Below are positions 1 through 23,283 of a stretch of DNA of 24,000 nucleotides, piece after piece. The stretch comes from Pseudanabaena sp. (GTDB lineage: Bacteria; Cyanobacteriota; Cyanobacteriia; Pseudanabaenales; Pseudanabaenaceae), in contig JBDNJN010000282.1 of the NCBI GenBank assembly GCA_041687725.1, forward strand, positions 1 through 24,000, written 5' to 3'. The notes beneath the pieces are model-generated. The model had not been told where the DNA came from. It searched no databases and saw only the letters and a list, made by a program, of their open reading frames with translations. Position 1 is the stretch's first letter; each line of letters begins with the position of its first letter. Both the position numbers and the translations under genes were made by a program.

Positions 1-114
1 ACAAGAGAAAACAAGCCATTTAAAATTCTTGATCAAGATTTTACAAAGATATTTTCGAGCTTCAATCGCTGGAATCCAGAAAACTCGTTCCCGAAAATGA
101 GCTAAATTAAAATG

Positions 115-3100
115 TTAAGAAACGTGTGCGGTTGCCCTGCCAATAGTACCTGTCATAGAGACAATTACATCGTTTTTCTTTATACTGATAGATTTGTATT
201 TTTCAAAAACATGATTTTCTATTGAATAAAGAGATTCTTCATTTATTTCAAAAGCTTGATTGAATGCTTCAGTTCTAACAAATTTTGGCTTTTCTTTTAT
301 ATATTCTTTGATTACATCATCTGGCGTAGTCCCATTCTTAATGTCTGAGGTTAGAACATTTCTAACAACTGTAAAACCTCTTGAATAACTTTTAATTTTT
401 GATTCTAAATCATCATATTTGGGTTGATAATATTCAGCGTCAAGCCGATCGCTTGTCCCAAAAGAAGCCGAAAAGCTCTTAATCGCAATATTTTCATCCG
501 TTGGTTGCCAGTCCTTCAACCCAAGCTCTGACAATAATAAATCTTCAGCTTGTTGATAACATTTTTCTGATTGTATTAGCTGTTTTTTTGCGAATGATAT
601 TACTTCGGAAATACGTTCTTCAAGATTTAACGAAAACTCTGGAATTGATACTTGATCCGTATCCTCTAAGATCAAGCCCATTTGGACGGCTCCGCGAGTA
701 AATCGCTTAATTTGACTTTGCCCAAATTTAGAATTTAGATAGGTAGAGAAGTATTCAGGCGTAATCTTTTTAGGGCGCAAAATTGCTAATTTACAGTTGC
801 AAGTTGCAGATTGATTTGTGCTGACAAGAGAAACGGCTCCAATAGTTCCTACAATTGAAAGTAAAACATCTCCTTTTTTAAGATGAGAGCGTTTCATATA
901 AGTTAAATTATAGGTGTCTTCATTAATGAAAATAGGCGAAGACTGCTCAATAAAAAAGTGATGTATATCTTGTCCTCGATAATATGGAATACCACTATCA
1001 GCAAAGTTCTCACTGATTTTCATGTGGTTTCCGTCAAAGACTTTAACAAAGTCAGTGATTGGTTTTAGAATTTTTTGTTTTAATATTCTTACGTTCTCAA
1101 GATATTCTTTCTTAAAAAACTCAGAATCAAGTCTGTGAGTACGTTCTAATTCACTCAATAGAACTTCAACCGCTTCTAGCTCACCCATCAACCCATTATA
1201 CTTCTCAGCATCAAACGGTATAACAGATGAGCTTAAATCAAAAAAACTTAAATTCTCCTTCTTTGCAAACTCAATAAATGCCTCAGCAATCCCATCTTGA
1301 GTTAATCCATCATGATTAAACAAATCGTGATCCACAATTAAATGACTATGTTCATCAAGCAAAAACTCACCCGAACCATCAGACTTTTTGACATAGATTT
1401 TCTCGCCCGAATTATCCTTACCACCCTTCCGCATTGTCGCAAAAAAGATATTGTAATCATCCCGATGCGGACAAAGAGCGCCAGCCGACCGATCATCATT
1501 CCACTTCTGCACAAATAACACCGAAGTCTTCGTACCCGTATGCGGCTTAAACGTATTCCCATGCAGCCCTACCACCGCCAAGATCCGACAGCGATCGGCA
1601 ATAAAATCGCGAATATACTTATCCGAAGAATTATTAAACCGACCCTGCGGCAATACCACCGCCATTCTGCCTCCCGCCTTCAAAAAGTCGAGATTGCGCT
1701 CAATAAAGAGAATATCTCGCCCCATCTTGTTTTGCCACTTACCATCACTCTTTTTTGCTAACTCATAGTGATAAATAATTCTCGGCTCCTTAATTTCTCC
1801 CGCAAAAGGAGGATTTGCCATCAACACATCAAACCGAAAATCTCGATAGTCCTTACTGCCTTTCGGGCGCAATTTCTTCAACCGATTAAATCCAGTGAAA
1901 TAGATACTTTGCCAGTCTTCCTGTTCTGCAATTTCATCCCACATCTCATAATCAAGCGTGTTTAGCTGTAAAACATTTGTCTGACCATCACCAGCAATCA
2001 GATTCAGCGTTCGCGCCACCCGCACAGCCTTTTCATCAAAATCAATTGCAAAAACCCGATCCTCAACATATTCCTTACAGCGAATCGGCTTATCTTCTAA
2101 AGAGAACAAATGACTAACTTCTAATCCCTCATCTTTTAAAATATTCTTCCAAACATGAAAAATCGCGTGAACAGGAAAGCCAGAAGAACCAGCCGCCGTA
2201 TCGATCGCATACTCATCCTCTTTTGGATTAAGCATCTTCACACACATATCAATCACATAGCGCGGCGTAAAGTATTGTCCCTTATCATCCTTACTATTTT
2301 TATTCATCAAATATTCAAAAGCCTCATCAATCACTTCCATATTGGAATTAAAAAGCTTGACATCCTGCAAAGATGCGACACAAATTCTAAAATGTGATGG
2401 AGCGAGACTAATTTTTACATCCTCACTAAAAATACCTTCCCACTTTTTCTTAGCCCGATCAAACAAATCTTGAATCTTAGTTTTAAGTTCTCCTTCCGTC
2501 TGCCCAGTATTGCGAAACTCTAAACATCTAGTACTGCGCCGCGTACCTTGTCCTGAGTACCACTCATCATAAAGCTTTGTAAAAATCAGCTTAAACAATT
2601 CCTCAAAAACATCTACCCCAGCATTAGCAAGCACTTCATCTTCCATTTCTTGAATCAAAGTTTTGAGAGATTTTTTCTCTCTCACCAATTTATCGCCAGC
2701 AATTAAATCATCAAGAGTAAAAGGTTTACCCACAATGTCTGAAAGCTTCTGATTCGCATTAGGAATATCGCTAATCGGCTCAAAATGATTAGGATCGTTA
2801 CGTTGATAATAGGAGATTTGCTCCCCATTCGTCCAAACGGCAATCGGCGCACCCGTTCCGTGACAATAGGATTTAAGCTGCTCTTTCCCATCCTTTAGTT
2901 TTGGCTTTTTTACCTCTACTAAGATATAAGCAGTATTTGGGCGATGCTTATCCATCACCACAATATCCGCCCGTTTCACCTCACGCCCAAAATTAACCCC
3001 ATATTCCACCTGAATCCGACTAACAGGATATAAATAGCGATCGCACAATACCTTTAAATAAAGCTGCCTAATCGCCTCTTCAGGCGTAAGCTTAATATCT

Positions 3101-3246
3101 TTACCCCGCACCAAACACTTAATGTAAGGCACATCCCCCTTAGCACTAGATTTCAAAAAAATAGACTGCTCTAACCAAGCTACCTCTCCAGCCTTAAACT
3201 GTGAAAGCTTGTACTCAGAGTCTTTAAGAATTTTAGCTAGATTCAT
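115..3246 (-). CDS. Single-chain R-M-S restriction-modification enzyme (type IIB/IIG-like): N-terminal PD-(D/E)XK nuclease, gamma-class N6-adenine methyltransferase and two HsdS-like target-recognition domains. The second TRD is truncated by a stop codon.
   Basis: The 1046-aa ORF runs 115..3255 from a TTG; the first ATG (MNLAKIL) is at 3244-3246. The nuclease-like motif is ADIVVMD...YILVEVKKPK. Methyltransferase motif I is AIDTAAGSSGFPV and motif IV is MANPPFAG. Two TRD openings are seen, RLDSEFF and RLDAEYYQPKY, each followed by a GTIG motif (SIVGTIGAVS and SMTGTIGRAT). TRD2 stops 7 residues after its GTIG. Confidence 0.8.
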   Translation of the reverse strand: MNLAKILKDSEYKLSQFKAGEVAWLEQSIFLKSSAKGDVPYIKCLVRGKDIKLTPEEAIRQLYLKVLCDRYLYPVSRIQVEYGVNFGREVKRADIVVMDKHRPNTAYILVEVKKPKLKDGKEQLKSYCHGTGAPIAVWTNGEQISYYQRNDPNHFEPISDIPNANQKLSDIVGKPFTLDDLIAGDKLVREKKSLKTLIQEMEDEVLANAGVDVFEELFKLIFTKLYDEWYSGQGTRRSTRCLEFRNTGQTEGELKTKIQDLFDRAKKKWEGIFSEDVKISLAPSHFRICVASLQDVKLFNSNMEVIDEAFEYLMNKNSKDDKGQYFTPRYVIDMCVKMLNPKEDEYAIDTAAGSSGFPVHAIFHVWKNILKDEGLEVSHLFSLEDKPIRCKEYVEDRVFAIDFDEKAVRVARTLNLIAGDGQTNVLQLNTLDYEMWDEIAEQEDWQSIYFTGFNRLKKLRPKGSKDYRDFRFDVLMANPPFAGEIKEPRIIYHYELAKKSDGKWQNKMGRDILFIERNLDFLKAGGRMAVVLPQGRFNNSSDKYIRDFIADRCRILAVVGLHGNTFKPHTGTKTSVLFVQKWNDDRSAGALCPHRDDYNIFFATMRKGGKDNSGEKIYVKKSDGSGEFLLDEHSHLIVDHDLFNHDGLTQDGIAEAFIEFAKKENLSFFDLSSSVIPFDAEKYNGLMGELEAVEVLLSELERTHRLDSEFFKKEYLENVRILKQKILKPITDFVKVFDGNHMKISENFADSGIPYYRGQDIHHFFIEQSSPIFINEDTYNLTYMKRSHLKKGDVLLSIVGTIGAVSLVSTNQSATCNCKLAILRPKKITPEYFSTYLNSKFGQSQIKRFTRGAVQMGLILEDTDQVSIPEFSLNLEERISEVISFAKKQLIQSEKCYQQAEDLLLSELGLKDWQPTDENIAIKSFSASFGTSDRLDAEYYQPKYDDLESKIKSYSRGFTVVRNVLTSDIKNGTTPDDVIKEYIKEKPKFVRTEAFNQAFEINEESLYSIENHVFEKYKSISIKKNDVIVSMTGTIGRATAHVS

Positions 3247-3520
3247 CGGGGACAAAAATACAAAATAGAGTATTAATAATCTTCAATATTAACGTGATTA
3301 TGGTAAGTAGCCGAAACTGATTTTGATTAAAAACGCTGTTATGGGACGCGATCGCAACTGTTCCCCTTCCCGTAGCCAAAATTCTAGCATGAAGTGAAAT
3401 TTTGGTAAAGAATCGGGCTTGACTTTGGACAAGAAAGCTTAAAGGCTTCTCACTCCAATATTCAAACACTTATTTTGGAGACTAGCGATCGCTTTAAACG
3501 TTATCTAGATCGCAAGATTA

Positions 3521-4248: not shown

Positions 4249-4273
4249 CGCCAATTCAAACTTGAAGTGCAAC
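4249..4273 (+). repeat. Left terminal inverted repeat of the IS30-like relic
   Basis: It matches the right end at 23/25 positions in inverted orientation. It lies about 70 nt upstream of the transposase start codon. Confidence 0.65.
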
Positions 4274-4343
4274 ACCTAGAGATCTTGTCATAAGGGACTC
4301 ATAAGGATATTCTGATATTTATCGTAACAATAAGGATATCTTC

Positions 4344-5003
4344 ATGAGTTATACACATCTTACCATTTCAGAGCGAGCAGAGATTTACAAATTAAGAGTG
4401 ACAGACAAATTGTCAATGTCAGCGATCGCCGCAACTATGAAGCGGTCAAAGAGTACGATATCAAGAGAGCTAAATCGTAACACCAGCGAGGAATACAAAG
4501 TTTATTTACCAGATACCGCCGATGCAACGGCAAGACAGCGCAGGGTAAAAGCAAAGGGACGATCAAGAGAATCATTGCTACGACAATAGAGGAGGTCAAA
4601 CAAAGCTTAGAGCAGTACCACAGTCTAGAACAAATAGCAGGACGGATGAAACGAGAAGGGAAGCCGACAGTGAGCTATGAGACGATTTAGCAAATACTCT
4701 AATCTATGTAAAACACCAAGAACTGGGGATGCGGAAGCAATATCTGAGACAGAAACGGAGGCGGCGAAAAGGAGTGAAGCAGAAACGTGGAGGAATTCCC
4801 AATCGAGTGGGAGCGAATTGAACGAGCATACAAATAGATTGATTAGGCAATTCTATCCCAAATCCACGAATTTTAAGATGGTGAAGGAAGAGGACTTCTA
4901 GAAGATTGTGAATTTGACAACCATAGACCAAGAGATTCTCTTGACTAGCGCACGCCTCATGAAGTATTCTTTGGGGCATCAGAACCTGTTGAACTTCAAA
5001 TTT
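4344..5003 (+). pseudogene. IS30-family transposase pseudogene with frameshifts, internal stops and a deleted DDE core
   Basis: Frame 1 encodes the N-terminal HTH (MSYTHLTISERAEIYKL...STISRELNRN). After a frame shift comes TTIEEVKQSLEQYHSLEQIAGRMKREGKPTVSYETI. Next is YLRQKRRRRKGVKQKRGGIPNRV. This is joined directly to the C-terminal NEHTNRLIRQFYPKSTNF. A further frame shift gives FDNHRPRDSLD*RTPHEVF. The roughly 150 aa that carry the first two catalytic Asp residues are absent. Confidence 0.7.
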
Positions 5004-5012
5004 GAATTGGCG
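4988..5012 (-). repeat. Right terminal inverted repeat of the IS30-like relic
   Basis: It matches the left end at 23/25 positions in inverted orientation. It contains the perfect 20-nt palindrome CCAATTCAAATTTGAATTGG. The transposase-derived reading frame ends inside it. Confidence 0.65.
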
Positions 5013-7357: not shown

Positions 7358-10351
7358 ATGAAATTCTGGAAAAAAAGTCTACTACTTCAACTTGTTTCCT
7401 ATTTCTCAGTGCTTTCTACAGTAACTGTGAATATTGTGGCTTTCTCTGCTTATGTGCGCGCTCGTGACGCACTCCAGAATTCAGTGATTGAGCGCCTAAA
7501 GGTAACAATATCTCTCAAAGAGTACCAACTAAATAGATGGGTTGAAGGGCAACGAAAGGATGTCATTCTCCTTGCTCAGTTGCCAGAAATCAGGGATGAA
7601 TTAGCCACACTTGTAACGATATCGCCAAACCAACCTGAATACTTAGCAACATATGCAAAGTTGAGCAAGTCTTTGAAAGATATAACAGACATCAAAGAAA
7701 ATTTATCCAGCATCATTGCTACAACCAATGGGGGGGTCGTTGTTTTTTCTAGTGAAAGTAATACTTTGGTCGGCAAATTTCGGACTTTAGGAGATCCGAC
7801 GACTTATTTTACTAGACAAAATGCAAATACAGTTGTGCCAAACTTCTATTTGTCAAAGTCAACTGGTAAAGCGCAAATAACTTTCGCAACTCCCATATTT
7901 GATCGCGAGCAAATAGCTATGGGTGCAATTACAGTTAATCTAGCACTTGAGGACATTGATAATCTCATTCGCGAAAGGACTGGGCTAGGTAAAACAGGCG
8001 CTACCTATTTAGTCGGTAGAGCTGGCAAAAAAAGCGTTTTCATTTCTGGCTCTAGAGAAGAAAATAAAAACAAAACAGATAGCAAAGATATTGTTGAGGT
8101 AAAAAGTGAAGCTATCGATTTAGCGCTTGCTAAGCAAGATGGGTTTGGTTTGTATAACAACTACACTGGTATACCTGTAGTTGGCGTATTTCGCTGGTCA
8201 ACAACGCAAAATCTGGCGATCTTAGCGGAGATTAATCAAGATGAAGCGTTTGAGCCTGCGAATCGATTAGCGAGAGATATTCTGTTGATTGGACTTAGTT
8301 CCGCAGGTATCTTATTAACTGCTGTTTACTTACTGGCCCGAAGAGTTACTCAACCGATTTTGGCGATCGCTGATGCTGCCAACCAAGTTGCTAGCGGTAA
8401 TCTCGATTCGCAAGCACCAGTATTAACTGAAGATGAAATTGGTGTCTTGGCGATCGCCTTTAATCAAATGACATCACAACTCAAAAATTCGGGTGAGCAG
8501 TTAGCCGATTACAGCCGCACCCTAGAGCAGAAAGTCGAACAACGCACCAGTGAAATCAAAGCGATTATCGATAACATGGTGGATGGATTGTTGGTAGTTA
8601 ATGGCGAAGATCGGATTACTCAGTTTAATCCCGCGATCGCAGGCATGATCGGAGTCAGTAATAGTGAGATTTCTACGTCTGAGAATTACTGGGAAATATT
8701 TAAAGCTGAGGAGATCGCAAATCTAGTTAAGAGTACTAGAGAAAATCCCAAACAAGTCTTTAGCGAAGAGTTTCAACTTCCCGATCGCCGTGTTGGCAAA
8801 GCGGTTGCTACTTCGATCTTTAGCGAGGTAAACACTTCAGGAGAAGCTACATTGGGAATGGATTATCTAGGCACTGTAATTCTAATTCGCGATATCACTG
8901 CTGAGAAAGAAGTTGATCGGATGAAAACAGACTTCATCTCAACTGTATCTCATGAATTGCGAACACCCCTTACTTCTGTGCTAGGGTTTGCCAAGTTGAT
9001 TCAGAAAAAGCTGGATGAATCGATCTTCCCCTTGATTCAGACCGATGATAAGAAAGTAAATCGCAGTGTGCGTCAAGTCACCGAAAATCTTGAAATTATT
9101 GTATCTGAAGGAACGCGCCTGACTAAGCTAATTAACGAGGTTCTAGATGTTGCCAAAATGGAAGCTGGTAAAATGCAATGGAATATGGAGCCGTTGGCAA
9201 TTATAGAAGTGATTGATCGGGCTTTTTCGGCAACTTCTGCACTCTTTGAGCAAAAAGAATTAGCAGTAATTCGAGAGATTGACGCAGACTTACCAAATAT
9301 CGATGGTGATAAGGATCGCCTGATTCAAGTTGTAATTAATCTGATCTCTAATGCGGTGAAATTCACCCAAGAAGGTGGTATCACTTGTCGGGTTAGGAAA
9401 GATAATCAATCGATTGTGGTCAGCATCATCGATCAAGGTGTTGGTATTTCTGAGTCCGACCAGCCAAAAGTGTTTGAGAAATTTAAACAAGTCGGCGATA
9501 CGCTCACTGATAAGCCCCAAGGAACGGGGCTAGGGTTGCCAATTTGTAAAGAAATAGTTATCCATCACGGAGGCAATATCTGGGTAGAGAGTGAAATTGG
9601 CAAGGGAAGTACTTTTTCTTTTACGCTTCCGATTAGCGCAGAAAATTCTCAGATCCCCTTAATTAATTTCGACATTCTCATCGACCAACTCAAGAAGAGG
9701 GTGACTTCAAATGATCAATCCCAATCTGAGGATGTGATTGGGTTACCCAAGAATATCCTAGTAATTGATGACGATGCGAGTATTCGGAAACTACTCAGAC
9801 AGGAACTAGAGGCTAAAGGCTATGTTGTGCGCGAAGCTGCAAATGGGAGTGAGGCGATCGCCAAAGTCCGTGAAAGTCGCCCCGATCTGATTACCCTTGA
9901 TATTATCATGAAGGGAATTAATGGCTATGATGTGGCAGCAATTCTCAAATCCGATCCTGCTACCCTAGATATTCCAATTATCATTGTCTCAATATTAGAT
10001 GACAAAGATAATGGTCTTCATTTAGGAATAGATAGTTATGTGACTAAGCCGCTAGACATGACCATATTGCAACGAGAGGTGGAAATTCTTTTGTCTAGTA
10101 AGGCTTCTACAGCCAAAAAGATTTTGGTGATTAACGATAATTTTAGTTCTATCGATCTATTAATGGAAACGTTGCAAAATCAAGGTTTCCTACCTTCCAA
10201 AATCTCTCCCCAAGATGATTTACGAGCTAGTGCGATCGCCTTTCAGCCTGATGTGATTATTGCTAGTACAAAATTTGCTCAAAAAGTACAATCTCTCCGT
10301 GCTGAGCCAAGTATGGAACATATTCGCTTTTTATTAATTGCCGACCAATAG
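7358..10351 (+). CDS. Hybrid sensor histidine kinase: TM, Cache-like periplasmic domain, TM, HAMP, PAS, HisKA, HATPase_c, receiver, pseudo-receiver
   Basis: The ATG at 7358 has GAGG 7 nt upstream; the ORF track starts at a TTG at 7307. The first TM is LLLQLVSYFSVLSTVTVNIVAF and the second is ILLIGLSSAGILLTAVYLLA. HAMP contains DEIGVLAIAFNQM. The H-box is SHELRTPL, with the His codon at 8951-8953. The N and G boxes are NLISNAVKF and GTGLGLPICK. The receiver shows VIDDDA...ITLDIIM...VTKP. A final REC-like fold lacks the acceptor Asp. Confidence 0.9.
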   Translation: MKFWKKSLLLQLVSYFSVLSTVTVNIVAFSAYVRARDALQNSVIERLKVTISLKEYQLNRWVEGQRKDVILLAQLPEIRDELATLVTISPNQPEYLATYAKLSKSLKDITDIKENLSSIIATTNGGVVVFSSESNTLVGKFRTLGDPTTYFTRQNANTVVPNFYLSKSTGKAQITFATPIFDREQIAMGAITVNLALEDIDNLIRERTGLGKTGATYLVGRAGKKSVFISGSREENKNKTDSKDIVEVKSEAIDLALAKQDGFGLYNNYTGIPVVGVFRWSTTQNLAILAEINQDEAFEPANRLARDILLIGLSSAGILLTAVYLLARRVTQPILAIADAANQVASGNLDSQAPVLTEDEIGVLAIAFNQMTSQLKNSGEQLADYSRTLEQKVEQRTSEIKAIIDNMVDGLLVVNGEDRITQFNPAIAGMIGVSNSEISTSENYWEIFKAEEIANLVKSTRENPKQVFSEEFQLPDRRVGKAVATSIFSEVNTSGEATLGMDYLGTVILIRDITAEKEVDRMKTDFISTVSHELRTPLTSVLGFAKLIQKKLDESIFPLIQTDDKKVNRSVRQVTENLEIIVSEGTRLTKLINEVLDVAKMEAGKMQWNMEPLAIIEVIDRAFSATSALFEQKELAVIREIDADLPNIDGDKDRLIQVVINLISNAVKFTQEGGITCRVRKDNQSIVVSIIDQGVGISESDQPKVFEKFKQVGDTLTDKPQGTGLGLPICKEIVIHHGGNIWVESEIGKGSTFSFTLPISAENSQIPLINFDILIDQLKKRVTSNDQSQSEDVIGLPKNILVIDDDASIRKLLRQELEAKGYVVREAANGSEAIAKVRESRPDLITLDIIMKGINGYDVAAILKSDPATLDIPIIIVSILDDKDNGLHLGIDSYVTKPLDMTILQREVEILLSSKASTAKKILVINDNFSSIDLLMETLQNQGFLPSKISPQDDLRASAIAFQPDVIIASTKFAQKVQSLRAEPSMEHIRFLLIADQ

Positions 10352-17386: not shown

Positions 17387-17971
17387 CTAAAACTCATGGC
17401 TAAAATCTTGGATTTTCTTGAATTTATAAAGATCCATAATTGCACCCCAGATCGCTGCTCCAGTTTCAGGATCTACGCCGCGATCGCCACTCCAAAAACT
17501 ATTCGCTGTCACTTCAAAACCTAAAACAACCTGTCGCGATTCGTTTAAATATTGAAAGCAACATTTGGCATCGGCTGGCATTGTGGCTTCGTAGCAACCA
17601 TTCGCAAAATCAACATCTAATAAGCATCCTGCGAGAGGCTCGATATCATTAATGGTGATTTGCTTGAGGCGATCGCGATCTTTTCCTGCTCCTGACCACG
17701 CACTGGGATCTTTAAAGCCCCAATATTTGATTTGGATCTTGCCATCGGTTTCAATGAATTGGAGAATGCGCTGACGATAGGGGCGATCGCTTTTAAGGGC
17801 ATTAGCTTGCTCAGCAAACAAAGCAACTTCCCCGAAAACTTTATGAGGAATTGGTCGTTGCCACCAGACTAAATTCACAAACCATATGGGTTGATCGAGC
17901 GCTTGCTCACGGTTACTAAATTCACCAGACATCCACAAGGTAAGAGTTGAGAGTTCTTCGGAAATATTCAT
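17387..17971 (-). CDS. cpcT: Phycobiliprotein chromophore lyase, CpcT/CpeT family
   Basis: The N-terminal signature is LTLWMSGEFSNREQALDQPIWFVNLVWWQRPIP. The length (194 aa) and the beta-barrel-type sequence are typical of T-type bilin lyases. Confidence 0.85.
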   Translation of the reverse strand: MNISEELSTLTLWMSGEFSNREQALDQPIWFVNLVWWQRPIPHKVFGEVALFAEQANALKSDRPYRQRILQFIETDGKIQIKYWGFKDPSAWSGAGKDRDRLKQITINDIEPLAGCLLDVDFANGCYEATMPADAKCCFQYLNESRQVVLGFEVTANSFWSGDRGVDPETGAAIWGAIMDLYKFKKIQDFSHEF

Positions 17972-22134: not shown

Positions 22135-23283
22135 GTGGTGACTCGGCAAAAAATCGGGGTAATTGGTGGCGGTCAGTTGGCATGGATGATGGCGATCGCC
22201 GCCAAATATCTTGGGATTGAACTAACTGTGCAAGCAGCAAGTCCTGATGACTCAGCCGTGAATGTTGCCGATCGCGTAATTTATGGCGATGTTGCTGATG
22301 CGATCGCTACAGCCAATCTCGCTGAACATTGCCAAGCGATTACCTTTGAGAATGAATTTGTCGATCTTGTGGCTTTGCAAAAGCTTAGTGATCGCGGCTT
22401 ATTATTTTTACCAAGATTAGAAACTTTGGCGATCGCTGTTGATAAGCTCAACCAACGCCAACATTTTCGCGATCACCATATTCCCACACCCGAATTTTAT
22501 AGCGTAGATAGTGAAGCAGAACTTTTAATGTCGGCTGAATACTTGGGCTATCCATTAGTTCTCAAAGCCAGAAGGCATGGCTATGACGGTAAAGGTACTT
22601 GGGTAATTAAAAATCAAATAGATTTGCGATCGGCTTGGGAAAGTATGCACAGAGCGCCAGCGATCGCTGAAGCATTTATTCCCTTTGAACGCGAAATCGC
22701 GGTGATTGCGGCGCGATCGCAATCAGGCGAAATAGTCATTTATCCCGTTGTCGAAACTTTGCAAACCAACCAAGTTTGTCGCCGCACGATCGCCCCTGCG
22801 CGAATTGATGCCAAGGTTAGCGAAAAAGTCGCAACTATTGCTAAGCAAATTGTTAACACCCTTGATGCGGTTGGCGTATTTGGCATCGAATTCTTTTTAA
22901 CTGCGAAAGGCGAAATCAGCGTTAACGAAATTGCACCGCGCACCCACAATTCAGGGCATTACACCATTGAAGGCTGCCAAACTTCGCAATTTGAGCAATT
23001 ATTGCGTGTGGTCAGCGGGAGACCCCTTGGTAATGTGTCGATGGTTGCACCTGTAGTAGTGATGGTCAATTTACTCGGCTTTGAGGATGCGTCTGGTGTC
23101 GATGCTGATTATTTAGATAAACGCAAAGCGATCGCGAGTTTCCCCAACACGCATATTCATTGGTATGGCAAAAAACAATCATCGGGTGGTCGCAAACTTG
23201 GTCATGTGACAATTTTGGCGGAAACACACGATATCGCTATTGGTATTAGCGATCGCATTGAAAGCATTTGGTATAGCAATTAG
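22135..23283 (+). CDS. purK: N5-carboxyaminoimidazole ribonucleotide synthase (ATP-grasp)
   Basis: PurK-type sequence is seen throughout, for example IGVIGGGQLAWMM, GYPLVLKARRHGYDGKGTWVI, NEIAPRTHNSGHYT and GRKLGHVT. It has a GTG start. Confidence 0.9.
   Translation: MVTRQKIGVIGGGQLAWMMAIAAKYLGIELTVQAASPDDSAVNVADRVIYGDVADAIATANLAEHCQAITFENEFVDLVALQKLSDRGLLFLPRLETLAIAVDKLNQRQHFRDHHIPTPEFYSVDSEAELLMSAEYLGYPLVLKARRHGYDGKGTWVIKNQIDLRSAWESMHRAPAIAEAFIPFEREIAVIAARSQSGEIVIYPVVETLQTNQVCRRTIAPARIDAKVSEKVATIAKQIVNTLDAVGVFGIEFFLTAKGEISVNEIAPRTHNSGHYTIEGCQTSQFEQLLRVVSGRPLGNVSMVAPVVVMVNLLGFEDASGVDADYLDKRKAIASFPNTHIHWYGKKQSSGGRKLGHVTILAETHDIAIGISDRIESIWYSN

What the first reader, a model, noticed from the sequence alone, without database searches (positions are those of the whole stretch)
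1..400. In-frame TAA truncates the second target-recognition domain, and the frame stays open to the window edge
TRD1 runs about 200 aa, from RLDSEFF to the conserved helix ending LLSELGL. TRD2 (from RLDAEYYQPKY) ends only 7 residues after its GTIG motif, at the TAA at 115-117. Translating the minus strand straight through that stop gives an uninterrupted 38 codons to position 1: HFNLAHFRERVFWIPAIEARKYLCKILIKNFKWLVFSC. NLAHFR lines up with KLAILR of TRD1, and KYLCKILIKNF lines up with EYFSTYLNSKF. This suggests the TRD once continued here. Possible explanations are a nonsense-inactivated enzyme, an enzyme with altered half-site specificity, a sequencing error, or a switchable specificity module. 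The similarity is short and was judged by eye.
Basis: partly seen in the sequence, partly recalled or inferred. Interest (0 to 1): 0.6.

Follow-up and report, generated by a model that had tools for sequence, protein, structure and literature searches.

The report
Small transposon interrupts a restriction-enzyme gene
The stop codon that cuts this cyanobacterial restriction-modification gene short is not a point mutation: it lies in the end of a 222-bp non-autonomous mobile element (a MITE with ISAs1-type ends) that inserted into the gene, which is an ordinary kind of gene disruption.

Summary
The 1046-codon minus-strand ORF (115..3255) stops at TAA 115-117, seven residues after GTIG, and the frame stays open to position 1. 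Homologues are about 1150-1195 aa, so about 125 residues are missing.

The interpretation that the TRD continues past the stop is wrong. Homology to the intact allele (P0002, same TRD2) ends at window 139|140, 22 nt before the TAA. Window 1-139 is the end of a mobile element.
- Its terminal 27 nt are 100% identical to more than 40 element ends in cyanobacterial MAGs. Each has a different flank, and many lie at contig ends.
- Complete 1.28-kb elements with these ends encode ISAs1-family transposases.

Position 1 is also the end of the source contig. Metagenome contigs overlap that end by 28-32 nt and carry the other junction. Together they reconstruct a 222-bp element:
- 31-nt perfect inverted repeats;
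- no ORF longer than 46 aa;
- a perfect 10-bp target duplication, GTACTATTGG.

Removing the element in silico restores a 1167-aa ORF with a complete TRD2.

Verdict: a single-chain Type IIB-like R-M-S gene disrupted by a MITE. It is probably a null allele. Low novelty.

The parts
1..139 (-). First 139 nt of an inserted 222-bp MITE, read in the sense of the gene. The contig ends inside the element.
   Evidence: Unrelated to the intact allele beyond 139|140. 100% overlap of 28 nt with L055 and 32 nt with L058, both of which continue to the other inverted repeat. No ORF longer than 46 aa.
108..139 (.). Terminal inverted repeat of the MITE. 108-138 pairs perfectly with the other end. The core 113-139 is conserved across cyanobacterial ISAs1-type elements.
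   Evidence: 31/32 nt complementary to the other end; 27 nt 100% identical at more than 40 loci, each with a different flank after CCCTG.
115..117 (-). TAA stop that terminates the truncated ORF. It lies inside the MITE inverted repeat (MITE positions 23-25).
140..149 (-). Target-site copy GTACTATTGG (codons G-T-I-G). It is duplicated on the far side of the MITE.
   Evidence: the identical 10-mer follows ...CCCTA in L055 and L056.
140..450 (-). N-terminal half of TRD2 (RLDAEYY...MTGTIG), about 90% DNA identity to the intact allele.
607..1062 (-). TRD1 (Methylase_S match, aa 732-883), followed by the central conserved helix ...QQAEDLLLSELGL.
1459..2337 (-). N6-adenine DNA methyltransferase domain (aa 307-599; contains the NPPF motif).
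   Evidence: PF02384, 101 bits; sequence.
2761..3084 (-). N-terminal nuclease domain (HSDR_N_2, aa 58-165).
   Evidence: PF13588, 93.8 bits.
115..3255 (-). Truncated fused R-M-S ORF: 1046 aa from TTG 3255, or 1043 aa from ATG 3246 (= P0001).

Best explanation
The gene at 115..3255 (-) encodes a single-chain restriction-modification-specificity enzyme. Its parts are an N-terminal PD-(D/E)XK-type nuclease, an N6-adenine methyltransferase, and a C-terminal HsdS-like module with two TRDs. This is the architecture of single-chain Type IIB enzymes.

A 222-bp non-autonomous transposable element (a MITE) inserted into the GTIG codons of TRD2 and duplicated 10 bp of target (GTACTATTGG). The MITE's 31-nt terminal inverted repeats match those of cyanobacterial ISAs1-family insertion sequences.

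Translation now runs 7 codons into the MITE's inverted repeat and stops at a TAA that belongs to the repeat. The product lacks the C-terminal half of TRD2 and the distal conserved helix, about 128 aa.

The open frame beyond the TAA is MITE sequence, not TRD. The MITE is multi-copy, so short-read assembly broke inside it. That is why the contig, and therefore the window, ends 139 nt into the element.

Shown here:
- the junction at 139|140;
- the identity of the repeat end;
- the complementary junction with the target duplication;
- the restoration of the ORF when the element is excised in silico.

Inferred:
- the metagenome contigs that carry the right junction represent the same insertion as in the window's genome;
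- the MITE is mobilised in trans by an ISAs1 transposase;
- the truncated enzyme is inactive. Nuclease, methylase and specificity sit in one chain, so losing all three together would be harmless to the cell.
For: -: about 90% DNA identity to the intact allele (L002, encoding P0002) up to ...ACTATTGG, then no similarity.
- the pattern hit 47 loci, more than 40 of which match window 113-139 at 100%. The flanks diverge immediately after CCCTG. Most hits lie 30-140 nt from contig ends.
- complete 1281- and 1285-bp elements bounded by this repeat (L031, L025) encode ISAs1-family transposase (NF033564, 283-292 bits against a cut-off of 70).
- P0124 (MLRNVCGCP|STIGSVAVYS...) and its contigs L055 and L056 carry the other MITE end, followed by the missing C-terminal half of TRD2.
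- a 28-nt exact overlap joins the window to L055. The result is a 222-bp element with 31/32-nt inverted repeats and an identical 10-bp duplication on both sides. Excision gives a 1167-aa ORF.
- L058 overlaps the window end by 32 nt. It shows the same element at a different site, in a response-regulator gene.
- no ORF longer than 46 aa in any frame.
- Methylase_S scores 41.2 bits when restored and 15.8 bits with the read-through.
- restored TRD2 is 84% identical to P0002 over 227 aa without gaps.
- the element folds as a long hairpin (z = -9).
- other 170-173-bp elements carry the same ends. One has a 9/10-bp duplication.
- window position 1 is the contig end.
Against: - The right junction and the inner 83 nt of the element come from metagenome contigs (JGI Ga0105055, Ga0105053; ENA ERZ27247445), not from the window's own assembly. 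P0124 is also recorded on an NCBI contig of 14,525 nt, which I could not retrieve.
- No single contig shows the whole 222-bp element. A longer element sharing the first 139 nt is not strictly excluded.
- The C-terminal piece in L055 is less similar to P0002 (77% aa) than the window's piece (about 92%). The two halves could therefore come from somewhat different strains.
- The full-length ISAs1 copies examined (L025, L031) show no clear target duplication.
- Loss of function is inferred, not shown.
Confidence: 0.85

Rival explanations
1. A full-length ISAs1-family insertion sequence (about 1.3 kb, with transposase), rather than a 222-bp MITE, sits in TRD2 of this genome. The window shows only its first 139 nt.
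For: The terminal 27 nt are identical to those of transposase-carrying elements. The window ends inside the element, so its interior is unseen in this genome.
Against: Window 1-112 matches none of the transposase-carrying elements. It is 100% identical, over 28-32 nt up to the very edge, to two contigs that run straight on to the other inverted repeat 83 nt later. The complementary junction at the same nucleotide carries the MITE-type interior.
Confidence: 0.07
2. One reading: a point nonsense mutation (or sequencing error) at 115-117 in an otherwise continuous TRD2.
For: The frame is open for 38 codons after the TAA.
Against: Homology to the intact allele is lost 22 nt before the TAA. The downstream sequence is a repeated mobile-element end. 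There is no TRD similarity. The frame closes 3 codons past the window edge. The open frame has a 6-19% chance expectation.
Confidence: 0.01
3. The truncation is functional. The shortened protein keeps TRD1 and the central helix. It pairs with a second chain to recognise a palindrome of the TRD1 half-site, or it is complemented by the C-terminal fragment (P0124), which starts at an ATG inside the MITE repeat.
For: There is precedent. [quoted passage not shown] Co-expressed N- and C-terminal S fragments regenerated wild-type activity. NgoAV is a natural example (PMC3874165). The 1039 codons upstream of the insertion carry no further lesions. Single-chain Type IIB TstI is a homotetramer (PMC4027205).
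Against: The break is in the middle of a TRD fold, not between domains. The product therefore carries about 105 aa of an incomplete domain, and the C-terminal fragment is not a whole TRD. Such homodimers are reported only for Type IC enzymes, whose two helices are alike. No expression or methylome data are available.
Confidence: 0.08
4. A programmed, switchable specificity locus (phase-variable hsdS or a shufflon), with the repeat serving as a recombination site.
For: TRDs are reassorted among homologues. A repeat lies at the break.
Against: The repeat is a transposon end with a target duplication, found at unrelated loci. No second match to the terminal repeat was found in the 24-kb window. 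No recombinase or spare TRD cassette was noticed among the ORFs or called genes in its first 13 kb. Immediately beyond the element lies the rest of the same gene.
Confidence: 0.01

Closest known systems
Type I MITEs (IS-derived miniature inverted-repeat transposable elements) that disrupt cyanobacterial genes, e.g. the MITE-caused pseudogenes of Anabaena sp. 90 (PMC3542288)
   Same: Small size (222 bp), long terminal inverted repeats, a target duplication, no coding capacity, hairpin-forming. Inserted within an ORF and creating a pseudogene. Causes assembly breaks.
   Different: The ends are those of ISAs1-family elements. I did not find an ISAs1-derived cyanobacterial MITE described in the papers searched. 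The Anabaena sp. 90 MITEs were classed as type II, with no IS sharing their repeats.
ISAs1-family insertion sequences (NCBIfam NF033564 transposase)
   Same: The terminal repeat begins CAGGG and is identical over 25-27 nt to elements that encode ISAs1 transposase (L025, L031). The 10-bp duplication fits the 8-10 bp that I recall ISfinder listing for the family (from memory, not checked).
   Different: The reconstructed element has no transposase gene. Its interior is unrelated to the autonomous copies sampled.
Single-chain Type IIB restriction-modification enzymes (AloI, TstI, PpiI, HaeIV; PMC4027205), and RM.BsaXI (PDB 8w0p)
   Same: Nuclease, gamma-type N6A methylase and a two-TRD specificity module in one polypeptide, with no translocase domain. 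The best solved-structure match is RM.BsaXI (E = 1e-20).
   Different: Direct sequence relation to AloI or TstI was not tested. Cutting on both sides of a bipartite site is unknown. In this copy TRD2 is interrupted.
EcoDXXI deltaC (Tn5 insertion in the C-TRD of a Type IC hsdS) and NgoAV (PMC3874165)
   Same: A transposable element inserted in the C-terminal TRD truncates the specificity module.
   Different: Those truncated S subunits were shown to be active with new palindromic specificity. Here activity is unknown, and the module is fused to R and M.

Membership tests
MITE (non-autonomous, IS-derived) | Small size (tens to a few hundred bp) | tested here: met
   222 bp, reconstructed from the window plus L055 and L058, which overlap it exactly by 28 and 32 nt. 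Not seen on one single contig.
MITE (non-autonomous, IS-derived) | Terminal inverted repeats | tested here: met
   31 of the first 32 nt are complementary between the two ends. Hairpin fold z = -9.
MITE (non-autonomous, IS-derived) | Target-site duplication flanking the element | tested here: met
   GTACTATTGG on both sides. The right copy is read from metagenome contigs L055 and L056.
MITE (non-autonomous, IS-derived) | No transposase gene | tested here: met
   Longest ORF is 46 aa. The peptides have no real homologues.
MITE (non-autonomous, IS-derived) | Several copies at unrelated sites | tested here: met
   The same interior sits next to a response-regulator gene in L058. Contigs break inside the element in three assemblies. 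Copy number in the source genome was not measured.
MITE (non-autonomous, IS-derived) | Ends shared with an autonomous IS that could mobilise it | tested here: met
   25-27 terminal nt are identical to L025 and L031, which encode ISAs1 transposase. Whether such an IS is present in the same genome was not testable.
ISAs1-family insertion sequence (autonomous) | Encodes an ISAs1 (NF033564) DDE transposase between the repeats | tested here: not met
   The reconstructed element has no such ORF. It is therefore filed as a derivative, not as a member.
Single-chain Type IIB R-M-S enzyme | N-terminal nuclease plus N6A methylase in one chain, without an ATP-dependent translocase | tested here: met
   PF13588 (aa 58-165) and PF02384 (aa 307-599). 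No helicase or translocase family among the hits. RM.BsaXI is the best PDB match.
Single-chain Type IIB R-M-S enzyme | C-terminal HsdS-like module with two complete TRDs and two conserved helices | tested here: not met
   TRD1 is complete. TRD2 stops at profile position 73/168. It is met in the intact homologues P0002-P0005 and in the in-silico restored ORF.
Single-chain Type IIB R-M-S enzyme | Cleaves on both sides of a bipartite site | not testable with these tools
   Needs biochemistry.
Nonsense (point-mutation) pseudogene | Sequence collinear with the intact allele on both sides of the stop | tested here: not met
   Collinearity ends 22 nt before the TAA.
Phase-variable / shufflon hsdS locus | Spare TRD cassettes in inverted orientation plus a site-specific recombinase nearby | tested here: not met
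   None noticed among the ORFs or called genes in the first 13 kb of the window. No second copy of the terminal repeat in the whole 24 kb. The far side of the element is the rest of the same gene.

The most novel reading that the evidence does not exclude
The MITE insertion did not kill the enzyme but re-specified it. The truncated single-chain R-M-S protein (TRD1 plus central helix) would assemble with itself and methylate or cut a palindromic duplication of the TRD1 half-site. This would be a natural, MITE-driven counterpart in a fused Type IIB-like enzyme of the laboratory Tn5/EcoDXXI 'macroevolution by transposition' case. The IR-initiated C-terminal ORF (P0124) might contribute.
Probability: 0.07. 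Interest if true: 0.5.

Novelty: new member of a known kind. Interest (0 to 1): 0.15.

Why it matters
Mostly as a correction. What looks like a nonsense codon followed by an open 'ghost' frame at a contig edge is a MITE insertion combined with a repeat-induced assembly break. It should be annotated as an interrupted R-M pseudogene, not as a variant TRD.

It also documents an ISAs1-type terminal repeat (GTTAAGAAACGTGTGCGGTTGCCCTG) shared by full-length ISs and several short MITEs across Pseudanabaena, Chamaesiphon, Thermosynechococcus and other cyanobacterial MAGs. That repeat is useful for masking and for explaining fragmented assemblies.

If the truncated enzyme proved active, it would be a natural example of specificity change by transposition.

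Tried and rejected
- Exact look-up of the 1046-aa product found nothing. The 1043-aa ATG form (P0001) was found.
- I suspected that the + strand ORF ending at 103-105 (TRENKPF...PKMS*) was a transposase C-terminus. The query was too short for the word-indexed search. The exhaustive HMMER search gave one spurious low-complexity hit. Rejected, because the element is non-coding.
- A protein search with concatenated MITE-frame peptides, meant to find contigs that traverse a whole copy, found nothing.
- Plasmid searches with window 1-140 and with the whole MITE found only a solitary 41-nt end in a Pseudanabaena plasmid.
- Rfam found nothing in the window.
- There is no second copy of the repeat within the window.
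- I could not retrieve the NCBI 14,525-nt contig that carries P0124, nor the DNA of the contig carrying P0122.
- A literature search for the CAGGG end of ISAs1 gave nothing citable. The ISfinder description is therefore marked as recollection.

Full report
**1. The observation**

The minus-strand ORF 115..3255 (1046 aa from TTG, or 1043 aa from ATG = P0001) ends ...VIVSMTGTIGRATAHVS at TAA 115-117.

Pfam finds these domains:
- HSDR_N_2, aa 58-165;
- N6_Mtase, aa 307-599;
- one Methylase_S match, aa 732-883 (TRD1).

The 120 best homologues are almost all 1150-1195 aa and carry two TRDs. This copy therefore lacks about 125 C-terminal residues.

The open frame is unremarkable. In composition-matched shuffles it stays open in 6% of cases for that frame, and in 19% for any frame of the strand. 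The two line-ups made by eye are 3/6 and 3/11 identities.

**2. The breakpoint**

P0002 (1164 aa, 79% identical overall) has the same TRD2. Its gene (L002) aligns with the window at about 90% DNA identity up to ...ATGACAGGTACTATTGG. Similarity then ends abruptly. The break is at window 139|140, which is 22 nt upstream of the TAA. The stop is therefore not a substitution in TRD2 sequence.

**3. What window 1-139 is**

A scan of one genome per species for TAAGAAA-N(1-5)-TGTGCGGTTGCCCTG returned 47 loci, all but one cyanobacterial.
- In more than 40 of them, window 113-139 is matched at 100%.
- The flank after CCCTG is different in every case.
- Most matches lie 30-140 nt from a contig end. This is the signature of a repeat that breaks short-read assemblies.

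Two loci hold complete elements bounded by inverted copies of this sequence:
- L025:2890-4174, 1285 bp;
- L031:2540-3820, 1281 bp.

Their ORFs match NCBIfam NF033564, ISAs1-family transposase, at 283-292 bits against a cut-off of 70. The window therefore ends in an ISAs1-type transposon end. Window position 1 is also the physical end of contig JBDNJC010000228.1.

**4. The other junction**

I searched with the C-terminal 126 aa of P0002 and found P0124, a 141-aa protein. It begins MLRNVCGCP, which is the translation of the terminal repeat read outward. It continues STIGSVAVYSIDSPAIINQ..., which is the missing part of TRD2.

Its contigs are L055 (JGI Ga0105055_10507396) and L056 (ENA ERZ27247445). 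Both start inside the element.
- The first 28 nt of L055 are identical to the reverse complement of window 1-28.
- A further contig, L058 (Ga0105053_10364533), overlaps the window end by 32 nt.
- L058 runs to the same repeat, but its flank is a response-regulator gene.

Joining the window to L055 gives a 222-bp element, CAGGG...CCCTA. Its properties are:
- 31 of the first 32 nt complementary between the two ends;
- 40% G+C;
- no ORF longer than 46 aa in any frame;
- a strongly hairpin-forming sequence (z = -9);
- GTACTATTGG on both sides.

Deleting the element and one copy of the duplication gives an uninterrupted 1167-aa ORF.
- Its TRD2 is 84% identical to that of P0002 over 227 aa without gaps.
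- It matches Methylase_S over profile positions 14-154 at 41.2 bits.
- The truncated-plus-read-through version matches only positions 14-73 at 15.8 bits, ending at the junction.

The frame closes three codons beyond the window edge.

**5. Mechanism**

A non-autonomous element (a MITE) carrying ISAs1-type ends transposed into the GTIG codons of TRD2 and made a 10-bp duplication. Translation reads seven codons of the inverted repeat and stops at a TAA that is part of the repeat.

The product lacks half of TRD2 and the distal conserved helix. In S subunits that helix pairs with the central helix to hold the two TRDs in place (PMC3874165). The most likely outcome is a null allele. Because nuclease, methylase and specificity are in one chain, all three activities would be lost together, without harm to the cell (inference).

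The upstream 1039 codons are intact and the duplication is perfect. The insertion is therefore probably recent (inference).

**6. Caveats**

- The right-hand junction and 83 nt of the element come from metagenome contigs, not from the window's assembly.
- P0124 is also recorded on an NCBI contig of 14,525 nt, which I could not fetch.
- The C-terminal piece is 77% identical to P0002, against about 92% for the window's piece. Some strain difference, or a recombination boundary, is possible.
- A full-length IS sharing the first 139 nt is not formally excluded. It is unparsimonious given the exact 28-32-nt overlaps.

**7. Comparison with what is known**

The gene has the domain order of single-chain Type IIB enzymes such as AloI and TstI (PMC4027205). 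Its best solved relative is RM.BsaXI (8w0p, E = 1e-20). Cleavage behaviour is untested.

MITE-disrupted ORFs are well documented in cyanobacteria. In Anabaena sp. 90, 15 of 147 MITEs lie within disrupted ORFs (PMC3542288).

A transposon inserted in a C-terminal TRD has precedent. Tn5 in EcoDXXI hsdS gave an active enzyme with palindromic specificity, and NgoAV is a natural case (PMC3874165). That is the one reading under which this locus would be more than a pseudogene. I give it about 7%.

**8. Verdict**

- The locus is an ordinary MITE insertion combined with a repeat-induced contig break.
- Novelty: a new member of a known kind.
- Interest: low.

Noticed in passing
window 4249-5012: A remnant of an IS30-family element about 764 bp long, bounded by 26-nt inverted repeats (4249-4274 and 4987-5012, 92% complementary). 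It keeps only the N-terminal HTH piece (ORF 4344-4589) and a C-terminal piece (ORF 4677-4901) of the transposase. Both are weak NF033563 hits. It is a second decayed mobile element, 1 kb upstream of the R-M gene.
   Followed up: partly
L055:84-509 and L056:29-454 (protein P0124): Gene callers predict a 141-aa chimeric ORF. It starts at an ATG inside the MITE's terminal repeat (MLRNVCGCP) and reads out, in frame, into the C-terminal half of TRD2 and the distal helix. Whether it is expressed is unknown.
   Followed up: partly
window 140-1150 (-) compared with P0002-P0005: TRDs are reassorted within the family. The window's TRD1 matches that of P0003, P0004 and P0005, whose TRD2s are different. 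Its TRD2 matches that of P0002, whose TRD1 is different (sequences).
   Followed up: partly
L026:3767-3939; L052:248-417; L007:4001-4041: Other short elements (173 and 170 bp) carry the same terminal repeat but unrelated interiors. They occur in a Chamaesiphon MAG and another cyanobacterial MAG. The L026 element has a 9/10-bp flanking duplication. A solitary 41-nt copy of the end lies in an intergenic region of Pseudanabaena sp. ABRG5-3 plasmid ABRG53b.
   Followed up: partly
L025:2984-4136 and L031:2578-3739: In both complete ISAs1-type elements, which come from different genera, the transposase is split into two overlapping ORFs at about the same place (about aa 250). This could be shared decay or a conserved frameshift.
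   Followed up: no
window, throughout (e.g. 8450-8457, 17783-17790, 22429-22436): The octamer GCGATCGC dominates the repeat lists. To my knowledge this is the cyanobacterial HIP1 palindrome. It is consistent with a cyanobacterial source, probably in or near the Pseudanabaenaceae given the closest homologues.
   Followed up: no
window 3246-3255 (-): The mechanical ORF starts at TTG 3255 (MSPMNLAKIL...). The database product P0001 and its homologues start at the ATG three codons downstream (MNLAKIL...).
   Followed up: no
contig carrying P0122 (ENA ERZ21966605, 1834 nt; DNA not retrievable): Another fragmentary allele of the same TRD2. A 341-aa contig-cut ORF ends 328 nt before a 136-aa ORF that starts at the M of MTGTIG. 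This suggests a different lesion in a related strain.
   Followed up: no
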